DNA of 64,000 nucleotides from Gammaproteobacteria bacterium (GCA_965278995.1 OZ257136.1:2874497-2938496), one strand, 5' to 3'; positions 45,903-52,992 are shown, counted from the first letter of the stretch. The notes: generated by a model from the sequence alone, not told the origin. A program made the numbers and translations.

Positions 45903-45972
45903 CTGCTAACGCGTCGAAGAGCGGCGTTGGAGCGCGCAGCGCGGAAGCGGCCGCTCGATTGGCGGGTTAAGT
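45903..45972. other. Integron attC site 1. It is the most diverged member of the attC family, with an inverse core TAAC and a core GTTAAG.
   Basis: It runs from GCCTGCTAAC to CCGCTCGATTGGCGGGTTAAG and is aligned to four other copies. Confidence 0.6.
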
Positions 45973-46612
45973 GCCGCGGTCTGCCAAACTAAGTGCAACA
46001 CCCTCATCGATCGCGGGTGGAGAACCGGCGTTACTGTCGGCTTCCTCGTCCGCCAAGACGGGGTTGTAAACATGACATACCACCAGCTCTCCGATAATGA
46101 ACAATACGTCATCGGCAGGCTTTGCCGCCAGCGGCGCAGCCTACGCTAAATCGCCTTTGCAGCGGGCCGTGCATCATCAGCCGCATACTCAAGCGGAACG
46201 CCACCCAGCACGACGGCCACTACCGGCCTGAAAAGGCCCACCAATATGCTGTCGCCAGGCGTCGTCGCAGCCGCCGTAATCGACACCATGGTCCATGTGA
46301 CTGGAAGCCCCATGGCCCGCGCGCTGCCCAGCCAATCGCGGCAGATTGCTCGGCAAGCGCCATATCAGCGAGCGTTCTAAACGCGTCGAGCGCGTGACCG
46401 GCTTCCTCGTCATCAAAAAGCGCAAAGCCCGCACCATGGCGCAAGCGGCCCGCGCCCTCACTCGCGCTATCCCACAACTCGATGCACGCTTCACGACCGT
46501 CACGCTCGACAACTTGACAACCGACCGCGCGAGCGGCTCGGATTTAAAACACCCGCCGAAGTATTCTTCGGCCCGTCCTAACGGTGCTGCACTTCAAAGT
46601 GGAATTCAAGCC

Positions 46613-46819
46613 TCAGTGCGAGGCCAGTTCTTCACGGACAATTTTGCGCACCAATTCTGGGGAGAGAACCTCTTCGCCCGAGCTGACGTGCGCTTTAAGT
46701 GCCTCGTTGATCAATGTCTGGTAGCCCTTACCAGACTTCTCCGACCGCAGTTTGAACTGTTGGAGAATTTCGTCATCAAGATAAATTGTGATACGAGTCT
46801 TTCCAAGCGGCGAGATCAC
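46613..46819 (-). CDS. BrnA-like ribbon-helix-helix antitoxin (COG3514 type) in a gene cassette
   Basis: It is a small protein (KGYQTLINEALKAHV) encoded downstream of a BrnT-like toxin, in the toxin-first order typical of BrnTA. Confidence 0.55.
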   Translation of the reverse strand: MISPLGKTRITIYLDDEILQQFKLRSEKSGKGYQTLINEALKAHVSSGEEVLSPELVRKIVREELASH

Positions 46820-46889
46820 TGCACCACGCTTGGCCTTCGAAAAGTCATATTCCTTTTTTTTAGTTCCGTCGCTCTTTCGGCTCGGCCAT

Positions 46890-47117
46890 TCAAACGGAGA
46901 TCAATCTGATATTTGCGCCACGGGGCGCCCATTTCACGACCATTAACGAATTAAAGAAGTTCATTCCTAAACTAACGAAACGCCGCTCGCCTTCGACGAA
47001 GGCGTCTTCCATTGTCAGGGCGTGGGGATCAATTAACACTCCGTCTCGTTTCGCGAGAGAAACCCCATGCTTCTGACGATTCGCTTCGTCCTTGGTCGGG
47101 TCATACTCGACGCTCAT
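46890..47117 (-). CDS. BrnT-like (DUF497/COG2929) ribonuclease toxin in a gene cassette
   Basis: MSVEYDPTKDEANRQKHGVSL...ERRFVSLG matches the BrnT family pattern. The start is internal to a longer ORF in the track. Confidence 0.55.
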   Translation of the reverse strand: MSVEYDPTKDEANRQKHGVSLAKRDGVLIDPHALTMEDAFVEGERRFVSLGMNFFNSLMVVKWAPRGANIRLISV

Positions 47118-47175
47118 TGAGTATGCACATTGTGCATATGGCGGAACAGAGGAGACGTTGAGAGGGTCAGTCTGA

Positions 47176-47244
47176 GGCCTAACGCGCCGATGATTGGCGG
47201 AGGAGTGCGCAGCACGAAGGCGTCCGCTCCATGGCTGGTTAGCC
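47176..47244. other. Integron attC site 2 (GGCCTAAC ... CGTCCGCTCCATGGCTGGTTAGC)
   Basis: It belongs to the same ~68-bp family as attC sites 3-5, with an imperfect internal dyad and unpaired bases. Confidence 0.7.
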
Positions 47245-47248
47245 ATCG

Positions 47249-48034
47249 CTACGGGAGTAGACCCAGGGATTGCAGACATGACCGACTGAGCTTCTCTCGC
47301 GTTGGACCCATTTCTGCATTCTTCATGTCCATGTTCAGGGCGAAGGGATAATTTATCCCACCGGAATTTACCCACCCGACCCACCAGCCGACACCTTCGT
47401 TCGGATAGTTCTGCCACCCAGACTTCGCCCAAAGGCCCCAGCCTTTGCCCTTGTCTTTGAGAAGGATTTCCTGGGTTTGAGTTTGCACCGTTTCGCTCAC
47501 CGGGAGACGATGAGCTACAAGCTTCGCAATGAAGCTGACCTGTTCGATTGCGCTGATCTGCAGTGGACCATCTAACCAGAATCGGTCTACTGCTTGGCCA
47601 ATCGTTTTATTCCCATAGTCGAAATACTCTAGCGCTTCGGCCATCCGGTTCAATCCGATTCGTCGGGCAAGCGTTTGGTATATCGCTACATTGGATAACA
47701 CGATTGCTTCGCGGAGGCTCATGTTCCGCTCCCATTCCTTGACTGGTTGCGGTTGCCCTCCGTATTCGAGAACCTCGTCAACGTCTTTGACGGCACCTAC
47801 GGTGAGTCCTATAAGCGTATTCGCGATCTTGAAGGTCGAGGCTGGGACGAACTGAGTGGTTGCGCGCTCTTGGTTGTAGCCAGTCATCTCTCCGGTTCGT
47901 GGGTCGAGGACAACAAAGGTGCCTGCTACGTTCGCTAGCCGAAACTGCTCGGCGAGATCGAGGTTCTCGGTCCACTGCGCCAAACACCGCAGCGGCACCA
48001 AGACCAACAAGAGAGCGGAAAGTGCTCTAATCAT
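47249..48034 (-). CDS. Class D (OXA-type) beta-lactamase gene cassette
   Basis: Motifs present: STFK, YGN, a KSG element, WWVGW and the omega-loop element QISAIEQVSF. A signal peptide is present. The stop lies 5 bp from attC site 2, and the start is 12 bp from the split attC site 3. Confidence 0.8.
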   Translation of the reverse strand: MIRALSALLLVLVPLRCLAQWTENLDLAEQFRLANVAGTFVVLDPRTGEMTGYNQERATTQFVPASTFKIANTLIGLTVGAVKDVDEVLEYGGQPQPVKEWERNMSLREAIVLSNVAIYQTLARRIGLNRMAEALEYFDYGNKTIGQAVDRFWLDGPLQISAIEQVSFIAKLVAHRLPVSETVQTQTQEILLKDKGKGWGLWAKSGWQNYPNEGVGWWVGWVNSGGINYPFALNMDMKNAEMGPTREKLSRSCLQSLGLLP

Positions 48035-48045
48035 TTTGATTGCGA

Positions 48046-48104
48046 TGCTTAACGTGCCGATGAGCGGCGTTGGAGTGCGAAGCACGGAAACGTCCGCTCG
48101 ATTG
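48046..48104. other. Integron attC site 3, left portion, interrupted by the IS insertion
   Basis: GCTTAACGTGCCGATGAGCGGCGTTGGAGTGCGAAGCACGGAAACGTCCGCTCGATTG matches the family, then diverges abruptly at about 48105. Confidence 0.65.
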
Positions 48105-49483
48105 ATGAAATGGACTCCTCCCGCACTTTTTGCGCCGGCATCAGTGTGCCAAAGTAGGGTTGTAACACGTCTACTTGCTCAGCTCAGGAGGAGTCCACCC
48201 ATGAAGTCTAAGATTATTGCTGTCGACCTGGCAAAGGATGTCTTCGAAGTCGCCGTCGCCGATCTCGATCACCACATCGTCGAGCGTCAGCGCTTGTCGC
48301 GCACGGCCTTCAGTCGCTTCATCTCGACACAACCGGCCGCGTTGGTGCTGGTCGAGTCGTGCGGCACCGCCCACTACTGGGCACGCCATGCCCAGGCCGC
48401 CGGACATCAGACCAAAATTATCCCGGCCCACTATGTCAAACCGTATCGCCGTCGCGGCAAGACCGACCGCGCTGACACCGAAGCCCTGCTTGAAGCCCAC
48501 CGTTGCCAAGGCATCAAGCCGGTCCCGCTGCGCTCCGTCGAGCAACAACAAATTCAACAACTCCACCGGGTGCGTGAGCAATGGAAGCGCACGCGCACCC
48601 AGCGTCTCAACGGACTGCGTGGGTTCTTACGTGAACTCGGCTTGGTTATTCCCGAAGGCGCCAAGCTCGCGCAACGGCGAGCTCATGCGTTCCTCAACGA
48701 CGACGCCATTCCGCCGCCCTTGAAGAGTGTCTTCACGCGCCTGCTCGAAGAAATCAAAACCCTCGAGAGCGACATCGCCGCCGTCGAACGACAGCTCAAG
48801 GCCCTGACCCAAGCCAATGCCGGCGTACAACGGTTACAGACCGTCGCCGGTGTCGGTCTGTTGACCAGTACCGCCATGGTCGCCGCCGCTGGCTCACCGC
48901 ATCATTTCCCCGACGGGCGTCATTTTGCCAGTTGGCTTGGCCTGACCCCACGCGAGTACAGCTCTGGTAATCAGCCGGTCCTCGGGCGGATCTCCAAGCA
49001 GGGCGACTGGGATCTGCGCATGCTGCTCACCCATGGCGCGCGCTCAGTGCTCACCAGGGCCAAGCAACTGCAACGCGTCGGAAAGACCCTGACCCGTCTG
49101 CAACAATGGGCCTGCACGCTCGAACGGCGGGTCGGTCATAACAAGGCGACCTGCGCCATCGCCAACAAGCTCGCTCGGATCTGTTGGGCCGTATGGAAAT
49201 CTGAAACCGACTTCGACGCTAACCGCGCCGCCGCTTAACCCCTCAACCCGTTTGCGTAGAGACTATCGCGTTCATGACATTTTGGTTGGACCAGTACCGA
49301 TGAAAGCCGATAACCAGCTTGCTCAGCCAAGAGCATTTCGATCGATTGGCACTCGGTGCGCGGATCTTCATGATGGCCCGGCCTCGACCAACGAGAGCCA
49401 CAGCGAGGCCGGATACACGACTGCAAACGACACCAACCGTCAGCAACGCACCTTCGTCTCTACTTGTGGGAGGAGTCCATACA
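48105..49483 (+). mobile_element. IS110-family insertion sequence of the attC-targeting IS1111 group (about 1.38 kb), inserted in attC site 3
   Basis: It carries a DEDD transposase ORF. Subterminal repeats CTACTTG-N-GGAGGAGTCCA lie near both ends (48171-48200 and 49457-49480). The flanks reconstitute an attC site. Confidence 0.65.
48201..49238 (+). CDS. IS110-family (DEDD) transposase
   Basis: The N-terminus MKSKIIAVDLAKDVFEVAV is present. The C-terminal Transposase_20-like region has VAGVGLLTSTAMVAAAG. An AGGAGG ribosome-binding site is present. Confidence 0.85.
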   Translation: MKSKIIAVDLAKDVFEVAVADLDHHIVERQRLSRTAFSRFISTQPAALVLVESCGTAHYWARHAQAAGHQTKIIPAHYVKPYRRRGKTDRADTEALLEAHRCQGIKPVPLRSVEQQQIQQLHRVREQWKRTRTQRLNGLRGFLRELGLVIPEGAKLAQRRAHAFLNDDAIPPPLKSVFTRLLEEIKTLESDIAAVERQLKALTQANAGVQRLQTVAGVGLLTSTAMVAAAGSPHHFPDGRHFASWLGLTPREYSSGNQPVLGRISKQGDWDLRMLLTHGARSVLTRAKQLQRVGKTLTRLQQWACTLERRVGHNKATCAIANKLARICWAVWKSETDFDANRAAA

Positions 49484-49510
49484 GGCTGGTTAGGCATCGC
49501 GTAGGTTAGC
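49484..49510. other. Integron attC site 3, right portion (GGCTGGTTAGG, with a second GTTAGCC copy)
   Basis: It matches the 3-prime ends of the other attC copies immediately after the IS right end. Confidence 0.5.
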
Positions 49511-49955
49511 CCCGGCGTACGGCCAAGAACGCCCCGGCCGACATTAAAACCAGGCCGACAAGTCTTTGTAAAGATAGCGTGTGCACCTGTGCGCCCAGTA
49601 GCCCAAATTGGTCTATGGCGGCCATTGAGATGAGCTGTCCGAGCAGGACAAATGCCACAGCATTGCCGACACCGAATTGTGGAGCTACCCAGGTAACGCT
49701 TAAAACGTAGAAGGCGACGAAGACACCCCCTAAATAGAAATAGAACGGGATTGATGCTTTGGGCGAAAGTCTCAGGCCACCTCCTACGGTGAACAGGAAA
49801 GCGAGCGAAACGCATAATGCCACCAGAAACAATACGGAGGCGGCGAAAGACGGGCTACCGTACGTAGAACCTAATTTGGAACTAAGCGCGGCCATAACAG
49901 GAATGCCTATACCCGTAGTAACCATAAGACAAGCAAAGAATAGTTGGTTTGCCAT
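49506..49955 (-). CDS. Small DMT-superfamily (EamA/DUF606-like) membrane protein cassette
   Basis: It is 149 aa with 4-5 transmembrane helices. Its stop lies within the attC core. Confidence 0.55.
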   Translation of the reverse strand: MANQLFFACLMVTTGIGIPVMAALSSKLGSTYGSPSFAASVLFLVALCVSLAFLFTVGGGLRLSPKASIPFYFYLGGVFVAFYVLSVTWVAPQFGVGNAVAFVLLGQLISMAAIDQFGLLGAQVHTLSLQRLVGLVLMSAGAFLAVRRG

Positions 49956-50080
49956 AGGTCGAACTCATCTAGTTATTCAAGGTGTAGGACGACAAGTTGA
50001 GGCGCGCGGACATTCAATGCAGCTCTTTGTAAATCTACTCGCGCCTTGAGAATGCGGCAACACCAACTATGCAGCGCGAT

Positions 50081-50150
50081 GCCTCAACGCGCCGATGAGC
50101 GGCGTTGGAGCGCGAAGCACGGAGGCGTCCGCTCGATTGGCTGGTTAGCT
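50081..50150. other. Integron attC site 4 (GCCTCAACGCGCCGATGAGCGGCGTTGGAGCGCGAAGCACGGAGGCGTCCGCTCGATTGGCTGGTTAGC)
   Basis: Family alignment. Confidence 0.7.
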
Positions 50151-50474
50151 GTCACTTCGTATTGCAACTTCGATATAGCTGCCGTTCGTGGCCGACGCAA
50201 TTGCGTCAACTACTGAGGCGATGGACGTTTGGATCCGCGGCCAGCTTGTCGTAGTTAACACGACGATCGAGATTTGGCGGGTATCGAGGTTCTGCTGGTA
50301 CTTCAGGTTCTGGTCTGTTGTTACCAACACATCGAATCCGTTCGCTTCGGCTTGACTCAAAAGGTCGCCATTCTGCAGAGAACCCCAGCCTCGCTCATAG
50401 GCCGTTTCAATTTCATGGGAACCGAGGTGCTTGCGAAGAGGAACTGGTGTTCCCTGATCAAACAGGATCCGCAC
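50145..50474 (-). CDS. DUF5615-type PIN-like putative toxin
   Basis: MRILFDQGTPVPL...DVLVTTDQNL matches the family. It is coupled to an upstream DUF433 partner. Confidence 0.5.
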   Translation of the reverse strand: MRILFDQGTPVPLRKHLGSHEIETAYERGWGSLQNGDLLSQAEANGFDVLVTTDQNLKYQQNLDTRQISIVVLTTTSWPRIQTSIASVVDAIASATNGSYIEVAIRSDS

Positions 50475-50693
50475 TCACGCGACTTCCAGGGATCGAGCTG
50501 CGTGTTCAAGGACTTTTCGAGCTTGGTCTAGGGTAACTCCGGGAAACCACTCCAGAAATTCTGAGATCTGGGCGCCGTCCTCAAGGTTTTCGAATAGCGC
50601 AGATACCGGAACCCGTGTGCCCCGAAACACCCACGCGCCGCTCACCATGTCTGGATCGCGATGGACAGCAGCGCATGTGGACCAATCAATCAT
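50475..50693 (-). CDS. DUF433 (COG2442) putative antitoxin
   Basis: GAWVFRGTRVPVSALFENLEDG is the DUF433 signature. Its stop overlaps the DUF5615 start. Confidence 0.5.
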   Translation of the reverse strand: MIDWSTCAAVHRDPDMVSGAWVFRGTRVPVSALFENLEDGAQISEFLEWFPGVTLDQARKVLEHAARSLEVA

Positions 50694-50733
50694 GAGTTGA
50701 TGCTACGCCAGGTCTGCACGGGGTTCAACGTGA

Positions 50734-50803
50734 CAGCTAACGTGCCGATGAGCGGCCTTGGAGCGCGAAGCGCGGAAACGTCCGCTCGATTGGCTGGTTA
50801 GAG
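50734..50803. other. Integron attC site 5 (AGCTAACGTGCCGATGAGCGGCCTTGGAGCGCGAAGCGCGGAAACGTCCGCTCGATTGGCTGGTTAGAG)
   Basis: Family alignment. The BrnA-like gene stop lies in its core. Confidence 0.7.
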
Positions 50804-51076
50804 CGAGGCTTCTTTGAACGCACGAAGCACCGCATTGATGCGAGTCTGATAGCCTGGACCTTGAGATCTAAACCACTCAAGAACATCCGCGTCTACGCGC
50901 AGCGCGATTGATGCCTTTGGCGGGATTGGCTTTAGACCCCTGCGGACTATACCGCCGACGATATGCTTGACCTTCGCCTCGGGATGCTCAGGAGATAGCT
51001 TAATGTCGCGGCCGCTTTGCGCACGTACCCGCGCCCAATCAGTTTTGGAGGTTTTCGAAGAGGATGCTTTCTTCAT
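50798..51076 (-). CDS. BrnA-like antitoxin, second copy
   Basis: GPGYQTRINAVLRAFKEA is present. It overlaps the upstream BrnT-like gene. Confidence 0.5.
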   Translation of the reverse strand: MKKASSSKTSKTDWARVRAQSGRDIKLSPEHPEAKVKHIVGGIVRRGLKPIPPKASIALRVDADVLEWFRSQGPGYQTRINAVLRAFKEASL

Positions 51077-51314
51077 TTCGGGTAGCCTTACGGGATGAGA
51101 TGACGTGGATTTCGGTTGAAGTCTCGGTATGAATTATTGATGTTGTTACCCCACCGAGGAAGCCAAGCGTTACAAAACGCTGCTCTCGGTACACAAAGCG
51201 ATTATCTTCGAAGGTAAACGTTGGCCCTTCAAAAACCCGCGGGGTGTCAACGAAATCAAAGCCATGTTCTTTAAGGTTAGTGCGGCGCTTTGGTTCGTCC
51301 CATGTGAATCGCAT
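51039..51314 (-). CDS. BrnT-like (DUF497) toxin, second copy
   Basis: MRFTWDEPKRRTNLKEHGFDF...QRFVTLG is present. Confidence 0.55.
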   Translation of the reverse strand: MRFTWDEPKRRTNLKEHGFDFVDTPRVFEGPTFTFEDNRFVYREQRFVTLGFLGGVTTSIIHTETSTEIHVISSRKATRNEESILFENLQN

Positions 51315-51365
51315 GCATCTAATGTATATACACTATGTAGATTCGTCAATCCACGACTGCGCCTC

Positions 51366-51452
51366 GCTCTAACATTCAGTAGCCATCATCCCAACCTTAT
51401 TACGCTCGTCAATCTGACGTTGAATTCCAGGTCGGAGTTAAGGCTACAGTCG
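51366..51452. other. Possible degenerate sixth attC site (CTCTAAC ... GGAGTTAAGG)
   Basis: It has an inverse-core-like TAAC and a core-like GTTAAG about 80 bp apart, with short internal inverted repeats. The call is weak. Confidence 0.25.
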
Positions 51453-52020
51453 AGTGCGAATCGGTGCGAGTGAGATGTTCAATTTTTACATCAGCAATTT
51501 GTAGTATGAGGTTGCCAGCGCCGCCAGTCATTGGCGGGAGTAGAACGCGATGATATACGTCAAACTGAAGTGATCGAAGCTACGTCCGGCCTTGCTGGAG
51601 CGCAGGTTGGCGTTCGTTGCCCGGCACGATTGTGATCGCGTATCCGGTGAATGGTTCGGAGCTACCAGGAGCTGGCTTTTTGGTTGCCTTCTATCGATCG
51701 TGTGGGTTCGGCTGTCCGAGTGCGTTAGTACCGCATTCGCACGGAGCGGGCTTACCTGTATTGGAACTGCGGCCGCGACTACGAACACCAGGAGGTGCCG
51801 CTTTACGGCATTTCAATGGCAGTGAACAGCGCCAGTACTATTATCCATATGACAGCACTGACCAGGAGGGGAGTTCTTCCGACACCCACCGCCATGCGCC
51901 ATTACTGCCGCACTGATGATCAGGAATATCGTTACGGCGAATAGAAACTTGATCACACTGTGATTGAGGATATGGTCGTGCAGGGTACGCAGAATCAAGC
52001 GTTGTATGCGCCGCACTATC

Positions 52021-52992
52021 TCATGTCCCGCCGTCGCTGAATTCAGGCTCCATCGGCACCACACAAGGTGCGGGCTGCTGATTGAACATCAGTCGCAGCA
52101 CGTCGGGGCGCGAATAATGGCCAACGGGGTCGGCCGCAGCTTTGGCAAACATGATAGCGCCCAAGTCGATGTCAGCGATGACGAGGCCTTCGACATCCGG
52201 CGCGAGTGGTGCGCACAAAGGGGCGCCATCCGGCCCGAACAGCCGTGAATGGCCACCGCCGACTCGCAACAGTTCACGCTTCGGCTGCGTATCGCATAGC
52301 AATTCGACTATCGCCGGCGATACCACGGCGCACGCGGCCAGCACGAAACATTGCCCTTCGGCAGCATAGATCTGGCTGGCAGCGACATTGAGTTCCGGGC
52401 CGAGCGCGTAAGCGGCGCCGACATACAGACTGAAGCTCGGCCAGCAGGCGATGTGAATTTGTTCGTGCTGCGCATACATCGCGTACTTGGTCAGCGGCTG
52501 CAGATGTTCCCAGCAGCACAATTGACCGATGCGCCCGAGCGGCGTGGCGCAGACTTTGAGATGGCTGCCATCGCTCTCGCCGAACAGCGTCCGTTCGACA
52601 TGTGTAGGCTTCAGCTTGCGTCGACGGATAATCAATTCGCCGTCCGCGCCATACAGCCACTGCCCCATGTACAGACTCCCGCCATCGCGTTCAGCGACGC
52701 CGACCGAGACCGTCATGCCGTTGCGCCTCGCTGCAGCGCCGAGTGCGAGGTCGTGCCGACTGCCCGCTACGATCGAATTGGCGTGATAACGCCCGACCAG
52801 CGGCATCGTCCAGGCCGGTGCATCCAGCCACAGAAAGAACGGGTAGCCTGGTATCCACGTTTCCGGAAATGCGAGCAGTTCGACACCGGCCCGCCCAGCT
52901 TCGTCGATCAGTGCGATGGTCTTCTCGACACTTGCTTCAAGATCGAGATACGCCGGCGCTGCCTGCACTGCGGCGACCTTGATGGTGCTCAT
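52021..52992 (-). CDS. Nitrilase / carbon-nitrogen hydrolase family
   Basis: The catalytic motifs FPETWIPGY and GQLCCWEH give the Glu-Lys-Cys triad context. Confidence 0.85.
   Translation of the reverse strand: MSTIKVAAVQAAPAYLDLEASVEKTIALIDEAGRAGVELLAFPETWIPGYPFFLWLDAPAWTMPLVGRYHANSIVAGSRHDLALGAAARRNGMTVSVGVAERDGGSLYMGQWLYGADGELIIRRRKLKPTHVERTLFGESDGSHLKVCATPLGRIGQLCCWEHLQPLTKYAMYAQHEQIHIACWPSFSLYVGAAYALGPELNVAASQIYAAEGQCFVLAACAVVSPAIVELLCDTQPKRELLRVGGGHSRLFGPDGAPLCAPLAPDVEGLVIADIDLGAIMFAKAAADPVGHYSRPDVLRLMFNQQPAPCVVPMEPEFSDGGT

What the first reader, a model, noticed from the sequence alone, without database searches (positions are those of the whole stretch)
46613..51314. Three toxin-antitoxin cassettes: two divergent BrnT/BrnA pairs and a DUF433/DUF5615 pair
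Toxin-antitoxin modules are the hallmark stabilising cargo of chromosomal integrons. The two BrnTA copies are clearly diverged paralogues rather than a recent duplication. Both keep the toxin-first gene order characteristic of BrnTA. The DUF433/DUF5615 pair has overlapping stop and start codons.
Basis: partly seen in the sequence, partly recalled or inferred. Interest (0 to 1): 0.5.

Follow-up and report, generated by a model that had tools for sequence, protein, structure and literature searches.

The report
Toxin-antitoxin cassettes in decaying integron
The region is a five-cassette remnant of a chromosomal integron holding two intact toxin-antitoxin gene pairs (BrnT/BrnA and DUF433/DUF5615) and one mutationally dead BrnT/BrnA pair, which is ordinary cargo for such elements.

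Summary
All six ORFs exist at the stated coordinates on the minus strand and hit the predicted Pfam families. Each pair sits in its own gene cassette, bounded by a 62-68 bp attC family that is linked to real integron integrases elsewhere.

Three corrections are needed:
1. The distal BrnT/BrnA pair (46613-47117) is decayed. Intact 90/82-aa homologues show two in-frame nonsense codons in BrnT (R76*, Y86*), which remove an invariant C-terminal Glu. The change that makes Y86* also destroys the BrnA ATG. A degraded IS30-family element separates the pair from its attC.
2. The DUF433 stop and the DUF5615 start abut (TGA|GTG, same frame). They do not overlap.
3. The integron has no intact integrase. 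Only a roughly 26-codon intI remnant with an in-frame stop lies upstream.

BrnTA-2 and DUF433/DUF5615 look intact. They are full length, under purifying selection where measured, and carry conserved internal promoter and operator motifs. The same gene pairing recurs in dozens of metagenomic loci.

Toxicity and the stabilising role are inferred, not shown. These are new members of known kinds, so interest is low. By-products are a divergent OXA-type beta-lactamase cassette and two insertion sequences (IS) sitting at defined attC positions.

The parts
51687..51764 (+). Remnant of the integron integrase gene (intI), N-terminal motif with an in-frame stop: PSIDRVGSAVRVR*YRIRTERAYLYW. It is divergent from the cassettes. 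A GTQNQAL motif in the same frame further on, near the 3' end of the 51693-52031 alignment, may belong to it.
   Evidence: It is the best window hit for four IntI queries. 0 of 1000 shuffles reached the observed local score. No intact tyrosine recombinase was found anywhere in the window.
51373..51686 (-). attI-like spacer between the intI remnant and the first cassette. It ends at the core site GTTAGAG (51373-51367).
   Evidence: Assigned by position. Relatives of the BrnTA-2 cassette carry the same GTTRRRY-type site (GTTAGAGCGAGG, GTTATAACGAGG, GTTAAAGCG) at this position. A promoter-like site lies at 51412-51385. attI function was not tested.
50741..51372 (-). Cassette 1, BrnTA-2. Contains brnT-2 (51314-51039, 91 aa), brnA-2 (51076-50798, 92 aa, overlapping brnT-2 by 38 nt) and its attC (50800-50741).
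   Evidence: - Pfam: PF04365 75.6 bits, full profile; PF14384 66.5 bits.
- Solved structures: BrnT 3U97 E 3e-7 and toxin 7VD7 E 2e-10, both aligned end to end.
- 3530 representative clusters at E<=1e-3, typically about 90 aa.
- Of 48 full-length relatives with enough downstream DNA, 40 have an adjacent BrnA-2-like gene.
51321..51349 (-). Promoter-like site of brnTA-2 (TTGACG, 17 nt, TACATT). It overlaps the palindrome TGTATATACA (51332-51323), the putative BrnA operator.
   Evidence: Found by the promoter scan. TTGAC and GTATATACA are invariant columns across seven related loci whose flanks differ. Operator function is inferred from BrnA autoregulation in B. abortus (PMC5086665).
50088..50740 (-). 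Cassette 2, a VapBC-like pair. Contains the DUF433 antitoxin (50693-50475, 72 aa), the DUF5615 PIN-like toxin (50474-50145, 109 aa) and its attC (50147-50088). The junction is TGA|GTG in the same frame.
   Evidence: - Pfam hits.
- The same 72-aa/109-aa abutting pair occurs in L054-L060 beside different neighbours.
- Homology starts exactly at GTTAGCTG, and TTGAAC-17-TAGCAT is conserved.
- dN/dS is 0.06 for both genes against L054.
- Invariant residues include D6, T52-T53-D54 and E102.
48053..50087 (-). Cassette 3, a YdcZ-type DMT membrane protein (49955-49506). Its attC is split (49495-49484 and 48104-48053) by an IS110-family element (48105-49483; transposase 48204-49238 on the + strand).
   Evidence: PF04657 107 bits; PF01548 and PF02371; NCBIfam transpos_IS110 296 bits. 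The insertion point is GATTG|GCTGG, with subterminal inverted repeats ATGGACTCCTCCC / GGGAGGAGTCCAT.
47183..48052 (-). Cassette 4, a class D (OXA-type) beta-lactamase (48037-47249) with its attC (47244-47183).
   Evidence: NCBIfam bla_class_D_main scored 269 bits (cut-off 250), but every named OXA family model was far below its cut-off. Best plasmid relative is 49.8% identical.
45910..47182 (-). Cassette 5, the decayed BrnTA-1. It contains:
- brnT-1 (47117-46890), 75 aa because of R76* (TGA at 46892-46890), with a second in-frame stop Y86* (TAA at 46862-46860);
- brnA-1, with its ATG lost; the only possible start is GTG at 46819, down to 46613;
- the palindrome TATGCACAATGTGCATA (47138-47122);
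- a degraded IS30-family element (46609-45972);
- the attC (45971-45910).
   Evidence: - All 20-odd close homologues are 90 aa.
- The alignment shows LISV*MAEPKERRN*KKGI against LISVRKAEPKERRNYEKGI.
- The DNA alignment with the intact cassettes L002/L003 shows CGA>TGA and CTATGAAAAAGG>CTAAAAAAAAGG.
- The intact partners are 82-83 aa and overlap the toxin gene by 17 nt.
- The same mutations occur in an independent metagenome contig, L001.
- The IS30 identity comes from L010.

Best explanation
Window 45.9-51.8 kb is a degenerate chromosomal integron in an uncultured-type gammaproteobacterium. All that remains of intI is a roughly 26-codon remnant of its N-terminal motif with an in-frame stop. 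Next to it lie five cassettes on the minus strand, each ending in a member of one 62-68 bp attC family.

**Cassette 1 (BrnTA-2)** is an intact type II toxin-antitoxin operon.
- BrnT-2 is a RelE-like (BECR-fold) ribonuclease that arrests translation.
- BrnA-2 is a ribbon-helix-helix protein. It binds and neutralises BrnT and, with it, represses the cassette's own promoter through the palindrome TGTATATACA.

**Cassette 2** is an intact VapBC-like pair.
- DUF433 (COG2442) is the DNA-binding antitoxin, translated first.
- DUF5615 (COG4634, Mut7-C-like reduced PIN) is the nuclease toxin. Its translation is coupled to DUF433 through the abutting TGA|GTG junction.
- The pair has its own promoter (TTGAAC-17-TAGCAT) about 6 nt upstream of the ATG.

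**Proposed role.** Both modules carry their own promoters, so they are expressed regardless of cassette position. Losing either one would free the more stable toxin. They therefore act as addiction modules that penalise deletion of the array.

**Cassette 5 (BrnTA-1)** is a dead copy of a different BrnTA lineage. The toxin was inactivated first, by R76*, which removes the invariant Glu equivalent to the catalytic Glu78 of B. abortus BrnT. After that the antitoxin start codon could be lost without harm.

**Shown here:** the sequences, family membership, cassette boundaries, the lesions, and conservation of the pairings and motifs.
**Inferred:** toxicity, neutralisation, autoregulation, the stabilising effect and the order of the mutations.
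For: - Family hits.
- attC family and boundaries. The same attC family lies next to full-length intI genes in L021 and L050.
- intI remnant.
- BrnTA-1 lesions compared with intact cassettes. An identical copy is present in L001.
- The catalytic Glu lies beyond the stop. Column E82 is invariant. Glu78 is required for BrnT RNase activity (PMC5086665, citing Heaton 2012).
- DUF433/DUF5615 pairing, the TGA|GTG junction and the cassette boundary are conserved; dN/dS is 0.06.
- BrnTA-2 pairing and its promoter and operator are conserved.
- Literature: PIN-COG2442 was predicted as a TA pair (PMC2701414) and validated for Synechocystis VapBC10 (PMC3834315). COG4634 is classed as a Mut7-C-like PIN toxin (PMC5499597). 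BrnT/BrnA occur among integron cassettes, and TA modules have been proposed to improve the stability of chromosomal integrons (PMC7370490).
Against: - No experiment shows toxicity or neutralisation for any of these proteins.
- DUF5615 scores 0.1 bit below the Pfam gathering score.
- The intI remnant is short, with modest E-values (0.002-0.36).
- PADLOC models give no hit, so a defence role has neither support nor refutation.
- A 68-aa BrnA-1 starting at GTG could still be made. dN/dS of brnA-1 against L002 is low (0.10), but this figure averages over the whole divergence.
Confidence: 0.82

Rival explanations
1. All three modules are functional TA systems. Under this view the 75-aa BrnT-1 is still toxic and a 68-aa BrnA-1 translated from GTG 46819 neutralises it.
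For: The truncated BrnT-1 still covers profile positions 1-70 of 77 and keeps D6, K9 and R46. BrnA-1 retains the RHH part of the profile (33-67). The operator palindrome and promoter region are kept. dN/dS of brnA-1 is 0.10.
Against: Every close homologue is 90 aa. Two independent in-frame stops have accumulated. The invariant Glu (E82), equivalent to the catalytic Glu78 of B. abortus BrnT (PMC5086665), lies beyond the first stop. The antitoxin ATG is mutated to AAA, and the conserved N-terminal MKKEYDFSKAKRGA cannot be translated. brnT-1 has a higher dN/dS (0.24) than brnA-1. The same cassette also carries a decayed IS.
Confidence: 0.08
2. The DUF433/DUF5615 pair is not a toxin-antitoxin system. 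It would instead be a regulator plus a non-toxic nuclease or other enzyme that travels as a cassette for a different reason.
For: No member of the DUF5615 clade itself has been assayed, as far as the searched literature shows (no paper mentions both names). The Pfam score is marginal. No specific PIN structural match was found. Synechocystis VapB10 activates rather than represses its operon (PMC3834315), so the regulation is atypical.
Against: The two small genes are strictly adjacent and co-oriented with a zero-nt spacer, and this is conserved across loci. Both are under strong purifying selection. D6, the TTD motif and E102 are invariant and E43 is nearly so. 9 of 32 relatives also touch PIN_10, the family paired with the DUF433 antitoxin VapB45 (PMC5499597). 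The PIN-COG2442 pair has been validated experimentally in Synechocystis (PMC3834315).
Confidence: 0.12
3. The intact TA cassettes act mainly as anti-phage abortive-infection modules rather than as stabilisers of the array.
For: TA modules of the RelE/ParE superfamily include defence toxins (PMC11980606). Defence functions are over-represented among integron cassettes (PMC7370490).
Against: No PADLOC model matches any of the six proteins, and no defence genes flank them in the array. This reading is compatible with, not exclusive of, the addiction mechanism.
Confidence: 0.15
4. The repeats are not attC sites and the region is not an integron. The TA genes would simply be scattered among REP-like repeats.
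For: There is no intact intI in 64 kb. z-scores for folding of single attC copies are weak, 0 to -1.4.
Against: - The repeats have RYYYAAC...GTTRRRY ends and imperfect internal dyad symmetry, one per gene unit and all in one orientation.
- Homology between related cassettes begins and ends exactly at the GTT core.
- The same repeat family lies beside full-length intI genes in L021 and L050.
- An intI remnant sits at the expected place and on the expected strand.
- The repeats are confined to 45.9-50.8 kb of the window.
Confidence: 0.03

Closest known systems
[quoted passage not shown]
   Same: Both use toxin-first order and an RHH-type antitoxin. BrnT-2 aligns end to end with 3U97 (E 3e-7) and keeps the residues equivalent to Asp6, Glu7, Lys9, Arg41 and Glu78. 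A palindrome sits in the promoter region, consistent with autorepression.
   Different: Sequence identity to the Brucella protein is low. The genes overlap by 38 nt. The module is packaged as an integron cassette with an attC. The second copy (BrnTA-1) belongs to another sub-lineage (DPTKDEAN N-terminus, no Glu7 equivalent) and is inactivated.
PIN-COG2442 (DUF433) VapBC-type systems, e.g. Synechocystis VapBC10 and M. tuberculosis VapBC45 (Rv2018/Rv2019)
   Same: An antitoxin-first bicistron of a roughly 70-aa DUF433 protein and a small PIN-like nuclease, tightly coupled.
   Different: The toxin here belongs to the DUF5615/COG4634 (Mut7-C-like, reduced PIN) clade. No structure or assay for this clade was found. 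It is not a canonical PF01850 PIN domain. The junction is TGA|GTG in the same frame. The module is a mobile integron cassette.
TA cassettes of chromosomal (sedentary) integrons, e.g. the Vibrio cholerae superintegron (higBA, parDE, relBE)
   Same: TA operons carried as promoter-bearing cassettes within attC arrays and proposed to stabilise them.
   Different: The array has only five cassettes. The integrase has decayed and two cassettes are hit by insertion sequences. The TA families (BrnTA, DUF433/DUF5615) differ from the classic Vibrio set, although BrnT/BrnA has been catalogued among metagenomic integron cassettes (PMC7370490).

Membership tests
BrnT/BrnA (type II TA) | Toxin matches PF04365 (DUF497/BrnT) above the gathering score | tested here: met
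   BrnT-2 scores 75.6 bits and BrnT-1 58 bits, against a cut-off of 34.5. BrnT-2 also hits PDB 3U97 and 7VD7; BrnT-1 hits 7VD7 at E 4e-4.
BrnT/BrnA (type II TA) | Antitoxin matches PF14384 (BrnA, RHH) and lies immediately downstream of the toxin | tested here: met
   BrnA-2 scores 66.5 bits and BrnA-1 38 bits, against a cut-off of 26.1. Gene order is toxin-first in both. T/A order is listed for BrnT in PMC11980606.
BrnT/BrnA (type II TA) | Residues needed for RNase activity and toxicity are present (B. abortus Asp6, Glu7, Lys9, Arg41, Glu78; PMC5086665) | tested here: met
   This row covers BrnT-2. D6, E7, K9, the R of EQRF and E81 align with the Brucella residues.
BrnT/BrnA (type II TA), copy 1 as a functional member | Full-length toxin including the C-terminal catalytic Glu, and an antitoxin with a start codon | tested here: not met
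   R76* and Y86* are present, and the invariant E82 lies beyond the first stop. The BrnA ATG is changed to AAA. The same lesions occur in the independent contig L001.
BrnT/BrnA (type II TA) | Toxin arrests growth, antitoxin neutralises it, and the complex represses its own promoter | not testable with these tools
   Support is indirect only: a conserved TTGAC and GTATATACA palindrome upstream of brnT-2, and the palindrome TATGCACAATGTGCATA upstream of brnT-1.
PIN-COG2442 (DUF433) VapBC-like TA | Antitoxin matches PF04255 (DUF433) | tested here: met
   53.6 bits against a cut-off of 23.6. There is a weak hit to the DUF433 structure 2GA1, E 0.044.
PIN-COG2442 (DUF433) VapBC-like TA | Partner belongs to a PIN-like nuclease family (DUF5615/COG4634, Mut7-C group) | tested here: inconclusive
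   PF18480 scores 23.7 bits against a gathering score of 23.8, E 5e-5. 30 of 32 close relatives hit PF18480 and 9 of 32 hit PIN_10. Homologues are named 'DUF5615 family PIN-like protein'. However, the AF2 model (pLDDT 89.9) gives no specific PIN match in the PDB. PMC5499597 states that no Mut7-C-group structure was known.
PIN-COG2442 (DUF433) VapBC-like TA | Conserved, tightly coupled two-gene arrangement with the antitoxin first | tested here: met
   The 72-aa and 109-aa genes abut in the same frame in the window and in L054-L060, beside different neighbours.
PIN-COG2442 (DUF433) VapBC-like TA | Acidic active-site residues are conserved | tested here: inconclusive
   D6, D54 (TTD motif) and E102 are invariant and E43 is at least 90% conserved in 32 relatives. 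Their assignment to the PIN catalytic tetrad is by analogy only.
Integron gene cassette | The unit ends in an attC with an RYYYAAC...GTTRRRY pairing, and homology with other copies breaks at G|TT | tested here: met
   attC coordinates are; hairpins. The cassette homology boundaries fall at GTTAGG and GTTAGCTG. Relatives of BrnTA-2 have GTTRRRY upstream and other attC types downstream.
Complete integron | Intact intI adjacent to attI and the array | tested here: not met
   No tyrosine recombinase ORF was found in the window. Only a remnant with an in-frame stop lies at 51687-51764. The same attC family lies near full-length intI genes in L021 and L050.

The most novel reading that the evidence does not exclude
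The DUF433 and DUF5615 genes lie in the same reading frame, separated only by a TGA that is followed directly by the GTG start, and this arrangement is conserved in every relative examined. It could be more than simple termination-reinitiation coupling. Occasional TGA read-through would produce a covalently fused antitoxin-toxin protein. That would give a built-in way to set the toxin:antitoxin ratio, or to make a single-chain form resembling the BrnT-BrnA fusions reported elsewhere. No evidence for read-through was obtained; only the geometry is shown.
Probability: 0.06. Interest if true: 0.45.

Novelty: new member of a known kind. Interest (0 to 1): 0.2.

Why it matters
The main value is in annotation. 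The region documents a small, decaying chromosomal integron in an environmental gammaproteobacterium, in which two self-promoted TA cassettes remain intact next to the dead integrase while a third has eroded. This fits the established idea that TA cassettes help to hold integron arrays in place, and that a toxin must be inactivated before its antitoxin can be lost.

The region also offers clean, testable representatives of the unassayed DUF5615 (Mut7-C-like PIN) toxin clade with its DUF433 partner. None of this challenges current understanding.

Tried and rejected
- **Intact integrase.** A motif scan and tblastn with IntI1 and three IntI proteins from related loci found none, only the remnant.
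- **Naming the organism.** A homologue search with the hydantoinase gave only 'MAG: Gammaproteobacteria bacterium' at about 80% identity. The genome scan with the attC pattern returned 50 MAG contigs from many phyla but not the source.
- **Identifying 45985-46612 directly.** Pfam on its ORFs, blastn against plasmids and tblastn against plasmids were all negative. It was resolved only through L010, which carries an intact IS30-family transposase.
- **NCBIfam and PADLOC.** Neither has models matching the six TA proteins.
- **Rfam.** Nothing was found in 45.5-52.5 kb.
- **Heaton 2012 (PMC3320955).** The paper is not held, so the catalytic residues are cited from the review PMC5086665.
- **dN/dS of brnT-1 against brnA-1 (0.24 against 0.10).** This points to relaxation of the toxin but is not decisive on its own.

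Full report
**1. What is in the sequence**

Between 46.6 and 51.3 kb all the relevant genes lie on the minus strand.

| Gene | Coordinates | Length | Pfam family | Score |
|---|---|---|---|---|
| BrnA-1 | 46613-46819 | 68 aa | PF14384 | 38 bits |
| BrnT-1 | 46890-47117 | 75 aa | PF04365 | 58 bits |
| DUF5615 | 50145-50474 | 109 aa | PF18480 | 23.7 bits (gathering score 23.8), E 5e-5 |
| DUF433 | 50475-50693 | 72 aa | PF04255 | 53.6 bits |
| BrnA-2 | 50798-51076 | 92 aa | PF14384 | 66.5 bits |
| BrnT-2 | 51039-51314 | 91 aa | PF04365 | 75.6 bits |

- The marginal DUF5615 score is rescued by context. The protein has 5967 homologues at E<=1e-5, nearly all 105-110 aa, some named 'DUF5615 family PIN-like protein' or 'predicted nuclease of predicted toxin-antitoxin system'.
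- 30 of 32 aligned relatives hit PF18480, and 9 also touch PIN_10.
- BrnT-2 aligns end to end with the solved Brucella abortus BrnT (3U97, E 3e-7) and with toxin 7VD7 (E 2e-10). It has 3530 representative clusters of relatives, typically about 90 aa.
- The two BrnTA copies are indeed old paralogues. The toxins are 24% identical over the full alignment and 31% over a local one; the antitoxins are 38% identical over 37 aa.

**2. Cassette context**

A 62-68 bp repeat follows each gene unit in one orientation. Its form is (C/T)TAACCAGCCAAT(C/G)GAGCGG...CCGCTCATCGGCGCGTTA. It has RYYYAAC/GTTRRRY ends and an imperfect hairpin. With crossover at G|TT, the map on the minus strand is:

| Cassette | Content | Coordinates |
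|---|---|---|
| C1 | BrnTA-2 | 51372-50741 |
| C2 | DUF433/DUF5615 | 50740-50088 |
| C3 | YdcZ-type DMT protein | 50087-48053 |
| C4 | OXA-type class D beta-lactamase | 48052-47183 |
| C5 | BrnTA-1 | 47182-45910 |

- The attC of C3 is interrupted between GATTG|GCTGG by an IS110-family element at 48105-49483.
- The repeat is a genuine attC family. It occurs in 50 MAG contigs. In L021 and L050 it lies beside full-length, divergently oriented intI genes that are 53-55% identical to IntI1.
- Homology between related cassettes begins and ends exactly at the GTT core.

**3. The integrase is gone**

- No tyrosine recombinase ORF exists in the 64 kb window.
- The plus strand at 51687-51764 encodes PSIDRVGSAVRVR*YRIRTERAYLYW. 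This is the conserved IntI N-terminal motif (LDRVRxxxRxxHYSxRTExxYxxW) with a stop in place of His. It sits exactly where a divergent intI should start.
- It is the best window hit for all four IntI queries: E 0.002, 0.005, 0.2 and 0.36. 0 of 1000 shuffles reached the observed score.
- The nitrilase gene begins at 52021, so most of intI has been deleted.
- The array is therefore a fossil integron, effectively an attC cluster lacking an integrase. The evidence for the remnant is modest but positionally coherent.

**4. BrnTA-1 is a pseudogene pair**

- All of the roughly 20 close homologues of BrnT-1 are 90 aa; the window protein is 75 aa.
- Read through its stops, the window sequence gives LISV*MAEPKERRN*KKGI against the consensus LISVRKAEPKERRNYEKGI.
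- DNA alignment with the intact cassettes L002/L003 (about 90% identical, same attC family on both sides) shows two changes. The first is CGA>TGA, giving R76*. The second is CTATGAAAAAGG>CTAAAAAAAAGG, which creates Y86* and at the same time converts the overlapping brnA ATG into AAA.
- The intact partners are 82-83 aa and overlap the toxin gene by 17 nt. In the window the only available start is GTG 46819, which drops the conserved MKKEYDFSKAKRGA N-terminus.
- Column E82 is invariant in the family. It aligns with Glu78 of B. abortus BrnT, one of five residues needed for RNase activity (PMC5086665). It lies beyond the first stop, so the 75-aa product should be inactive.
- brnT-1 has a higher dN/dS against L002 (0.24) than brnA-1 (0.10).
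- The same lesions occur in an independent metagenome contig, L001, so they are not sequencing errors.
- Inference: the toxin died first, which then allowed loss of the antitoxin start.
- The cassette is also split from its attC (45971-45910) by 638 bp (46609-45972). My own searches could not assign this segment. It is 79-81% identical in three pieces to an IS30-family element in L010, which encodes an intact 323-aa transposase. The window copy has two internal deletions.

**5. The two intact modules**

*DUF433/DUF5615*
- The junction reads GCG TGA GTG CGG. The stop is followed directly by the start, in the same frame, so the codons abut rather than overlap.
- The identical geometry and gene sizes recur in L054-L060, next to different neighbours.
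- Cassette homology begins exactly at GTTAGCTG. The 45-nt leader holds a conserved TTGAAC-17-TAGCAT ending about 6 nt before the ATG.
- Both genes show dN/dS of 0.06.
- Invariant residues in DUF5615 include D6, T52-T53-D54 and E102, and E43 is at least 90% conserved.
- The AF2 model is confident (pLDDT 89.9, alternating beta/alpha) but has no specific PDB neighbour. This agrees with the statement that the Mut7-C-like group lacked any known structure (PMC5499597). It leaves the PIN-fold claim resting on sequence.

*BrnTA-2*
- Eighty metagenomic relatives were recovered. Of 48 full-length ones with enough downstream DNA, 40 have an adjacent BrnA-2-like gene with the same overlap.
- Alignment shows invariant TTGAC and GTATATACA motifs upstream of the ATG, a GTTRRRY site further upstream and various attC types downstream.
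- The promoter scan picks up TTGACG-17-TACATT at 51349-51321.

**6. Mechanism (inferred)**

- BrnT is a RelE-like ribonuclease that blocks translation. BrnA is an RHH dimer that forms a 2:2 complex with BrnT and represses the operon (PMC5086665, PMC11980606).
- DUF433 (COG2442) proteins were predicted to be the DNA-binding antitoxins of PIN toxins (PMC2701414). This was shown for Synechocystis VapBC10, where VapC10 arrests E. coli growth, VapB10 rescues it, and ClpXP degrades VapB10 (PMC3834315).
- COG4634 is classed as a Mut7-C-like PIN toxin (PMC5499597).
- TA modules are a recognised and over-represented cargo of integron cassettes, BrnT/BrnA included, and have been proposed to improve the stability of chromosomal arrays (PMC7370490).
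- Nothing here tests toxicity, neutralisation or stabilisation.

**7. Verdict**

- These are new sequence members of well-known kinds, in a typical setting, so interest is low.
- The organism could be placed only as an environmental gammaproteobacterium.

Noticed in passing
window 47249-48037 (-), cassette 48052-47183: An OXA-type class D beta-lactamase carried as an integron cassette. It passes the generic class D model (269 bits, cut-off 250) but is far below every named OXA family cut-off (best is OXA-50-var, 252 against 600). It is at most 49.8% identical to any plasmid-borne OXA. The STFK, YGN and KSG motifs are visible in the translation.
   Followed up: partly
window 48105-49483 (+), transposase 48204-49238: An IS110-family element with subterminal inverted repeats ATGGACTCCTCCC / GGGAGGAGTCCAT. 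It is inserted inside the attC of the YdcZ cassette between GATTG|GCTGG. From memory, this resembles the attC-targeting IS1111-attC group. The only plasmid match is to IS110-family elements such as ISPpu24, at 66% identity over 21% of its length. About 245 nt of non-coding DNA follows the transposase gene; no Rfam hit.
   Followed up: partly
window 45972-46609 (+ strand element); L010 954-2028: A degraded IS30-family element with two internal deletions and no ORF. It is inserted between the brnA-1 stop plus GGC and the TTAAC (R'') of that cassette's attC. In L010 an intact copy (323-aa transposase) sits at the same relative position, GGC|IS|CTAAC, in the attC of an unrelated cassette. This suggests an IS30-family element that targets the 5' edge of attC sites.
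   Followed up: partly
window 51687-51764 (+), possibly to ~52031: An intI remnant with an in-frame stop, truncated by the neighbouring nitrilase gene (52021-52992, minus strand). The integron is integrase-less.
   Followed up: yes
window 51813-51965 (-): A small ORF (50 aa from an internal start) with a hydrophobic N-terminus and a His/Cys-rich tail (HGGG...CCHMD...HCH). It lies over the intI-remnant region. It has only a weak sub-threshold hit to the PtrA N-terminal domain (E 0.002, 18 bits against a cut-off of 31). It may be spurious.
   Followed up: no
window cassettes 1-3 (49.5-51.3 kb) versus cassettes 4-5 and flanks: The exact sequences of BrnT-2, BrnA-2, DUF433, DUF5615 and YdcZ are absent from the 15-billion-protein collection. 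The SDR, nitrilase, OXA and BrnT-1 sequences are present, on a 5.7 Mb NCBI contig. This could reflect index gaps, or strain-to-strain differences in the integrase-proximal cassettes. It was not resolved.
   Followed up: partly
L004-L053 (genome-contig hits): This attC family occurs in MAGs assigned to many phyla: Acidobacteriota, Nitrospira, Nitrosomonas, Chloroflexota, Competibacteraceae, and even a Klebsiella pneumoniae MAG. Many hits are on very short contigs. This suggests either wide cassette exchange or binning artefacts.
   Followed up: no
L002, L054, L056-L060: Related arrays carry other small two-gene cassettes, such as DUF4258 (RelE-like) plus a 72-aa partner and DUF4160 plus DUF2442, as well as repeated F420H2-dependent quinone reductase cassettes. 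TA-like pairs are therefore frequent in this attC family.
   Followed up: no
window 49506-49955 (-): A YdcZ-type DMT inner-membrane protein (PF04657, 107 bits) carried as a cassette between the TA cassette and the OXA cassette.
   Followed up: no
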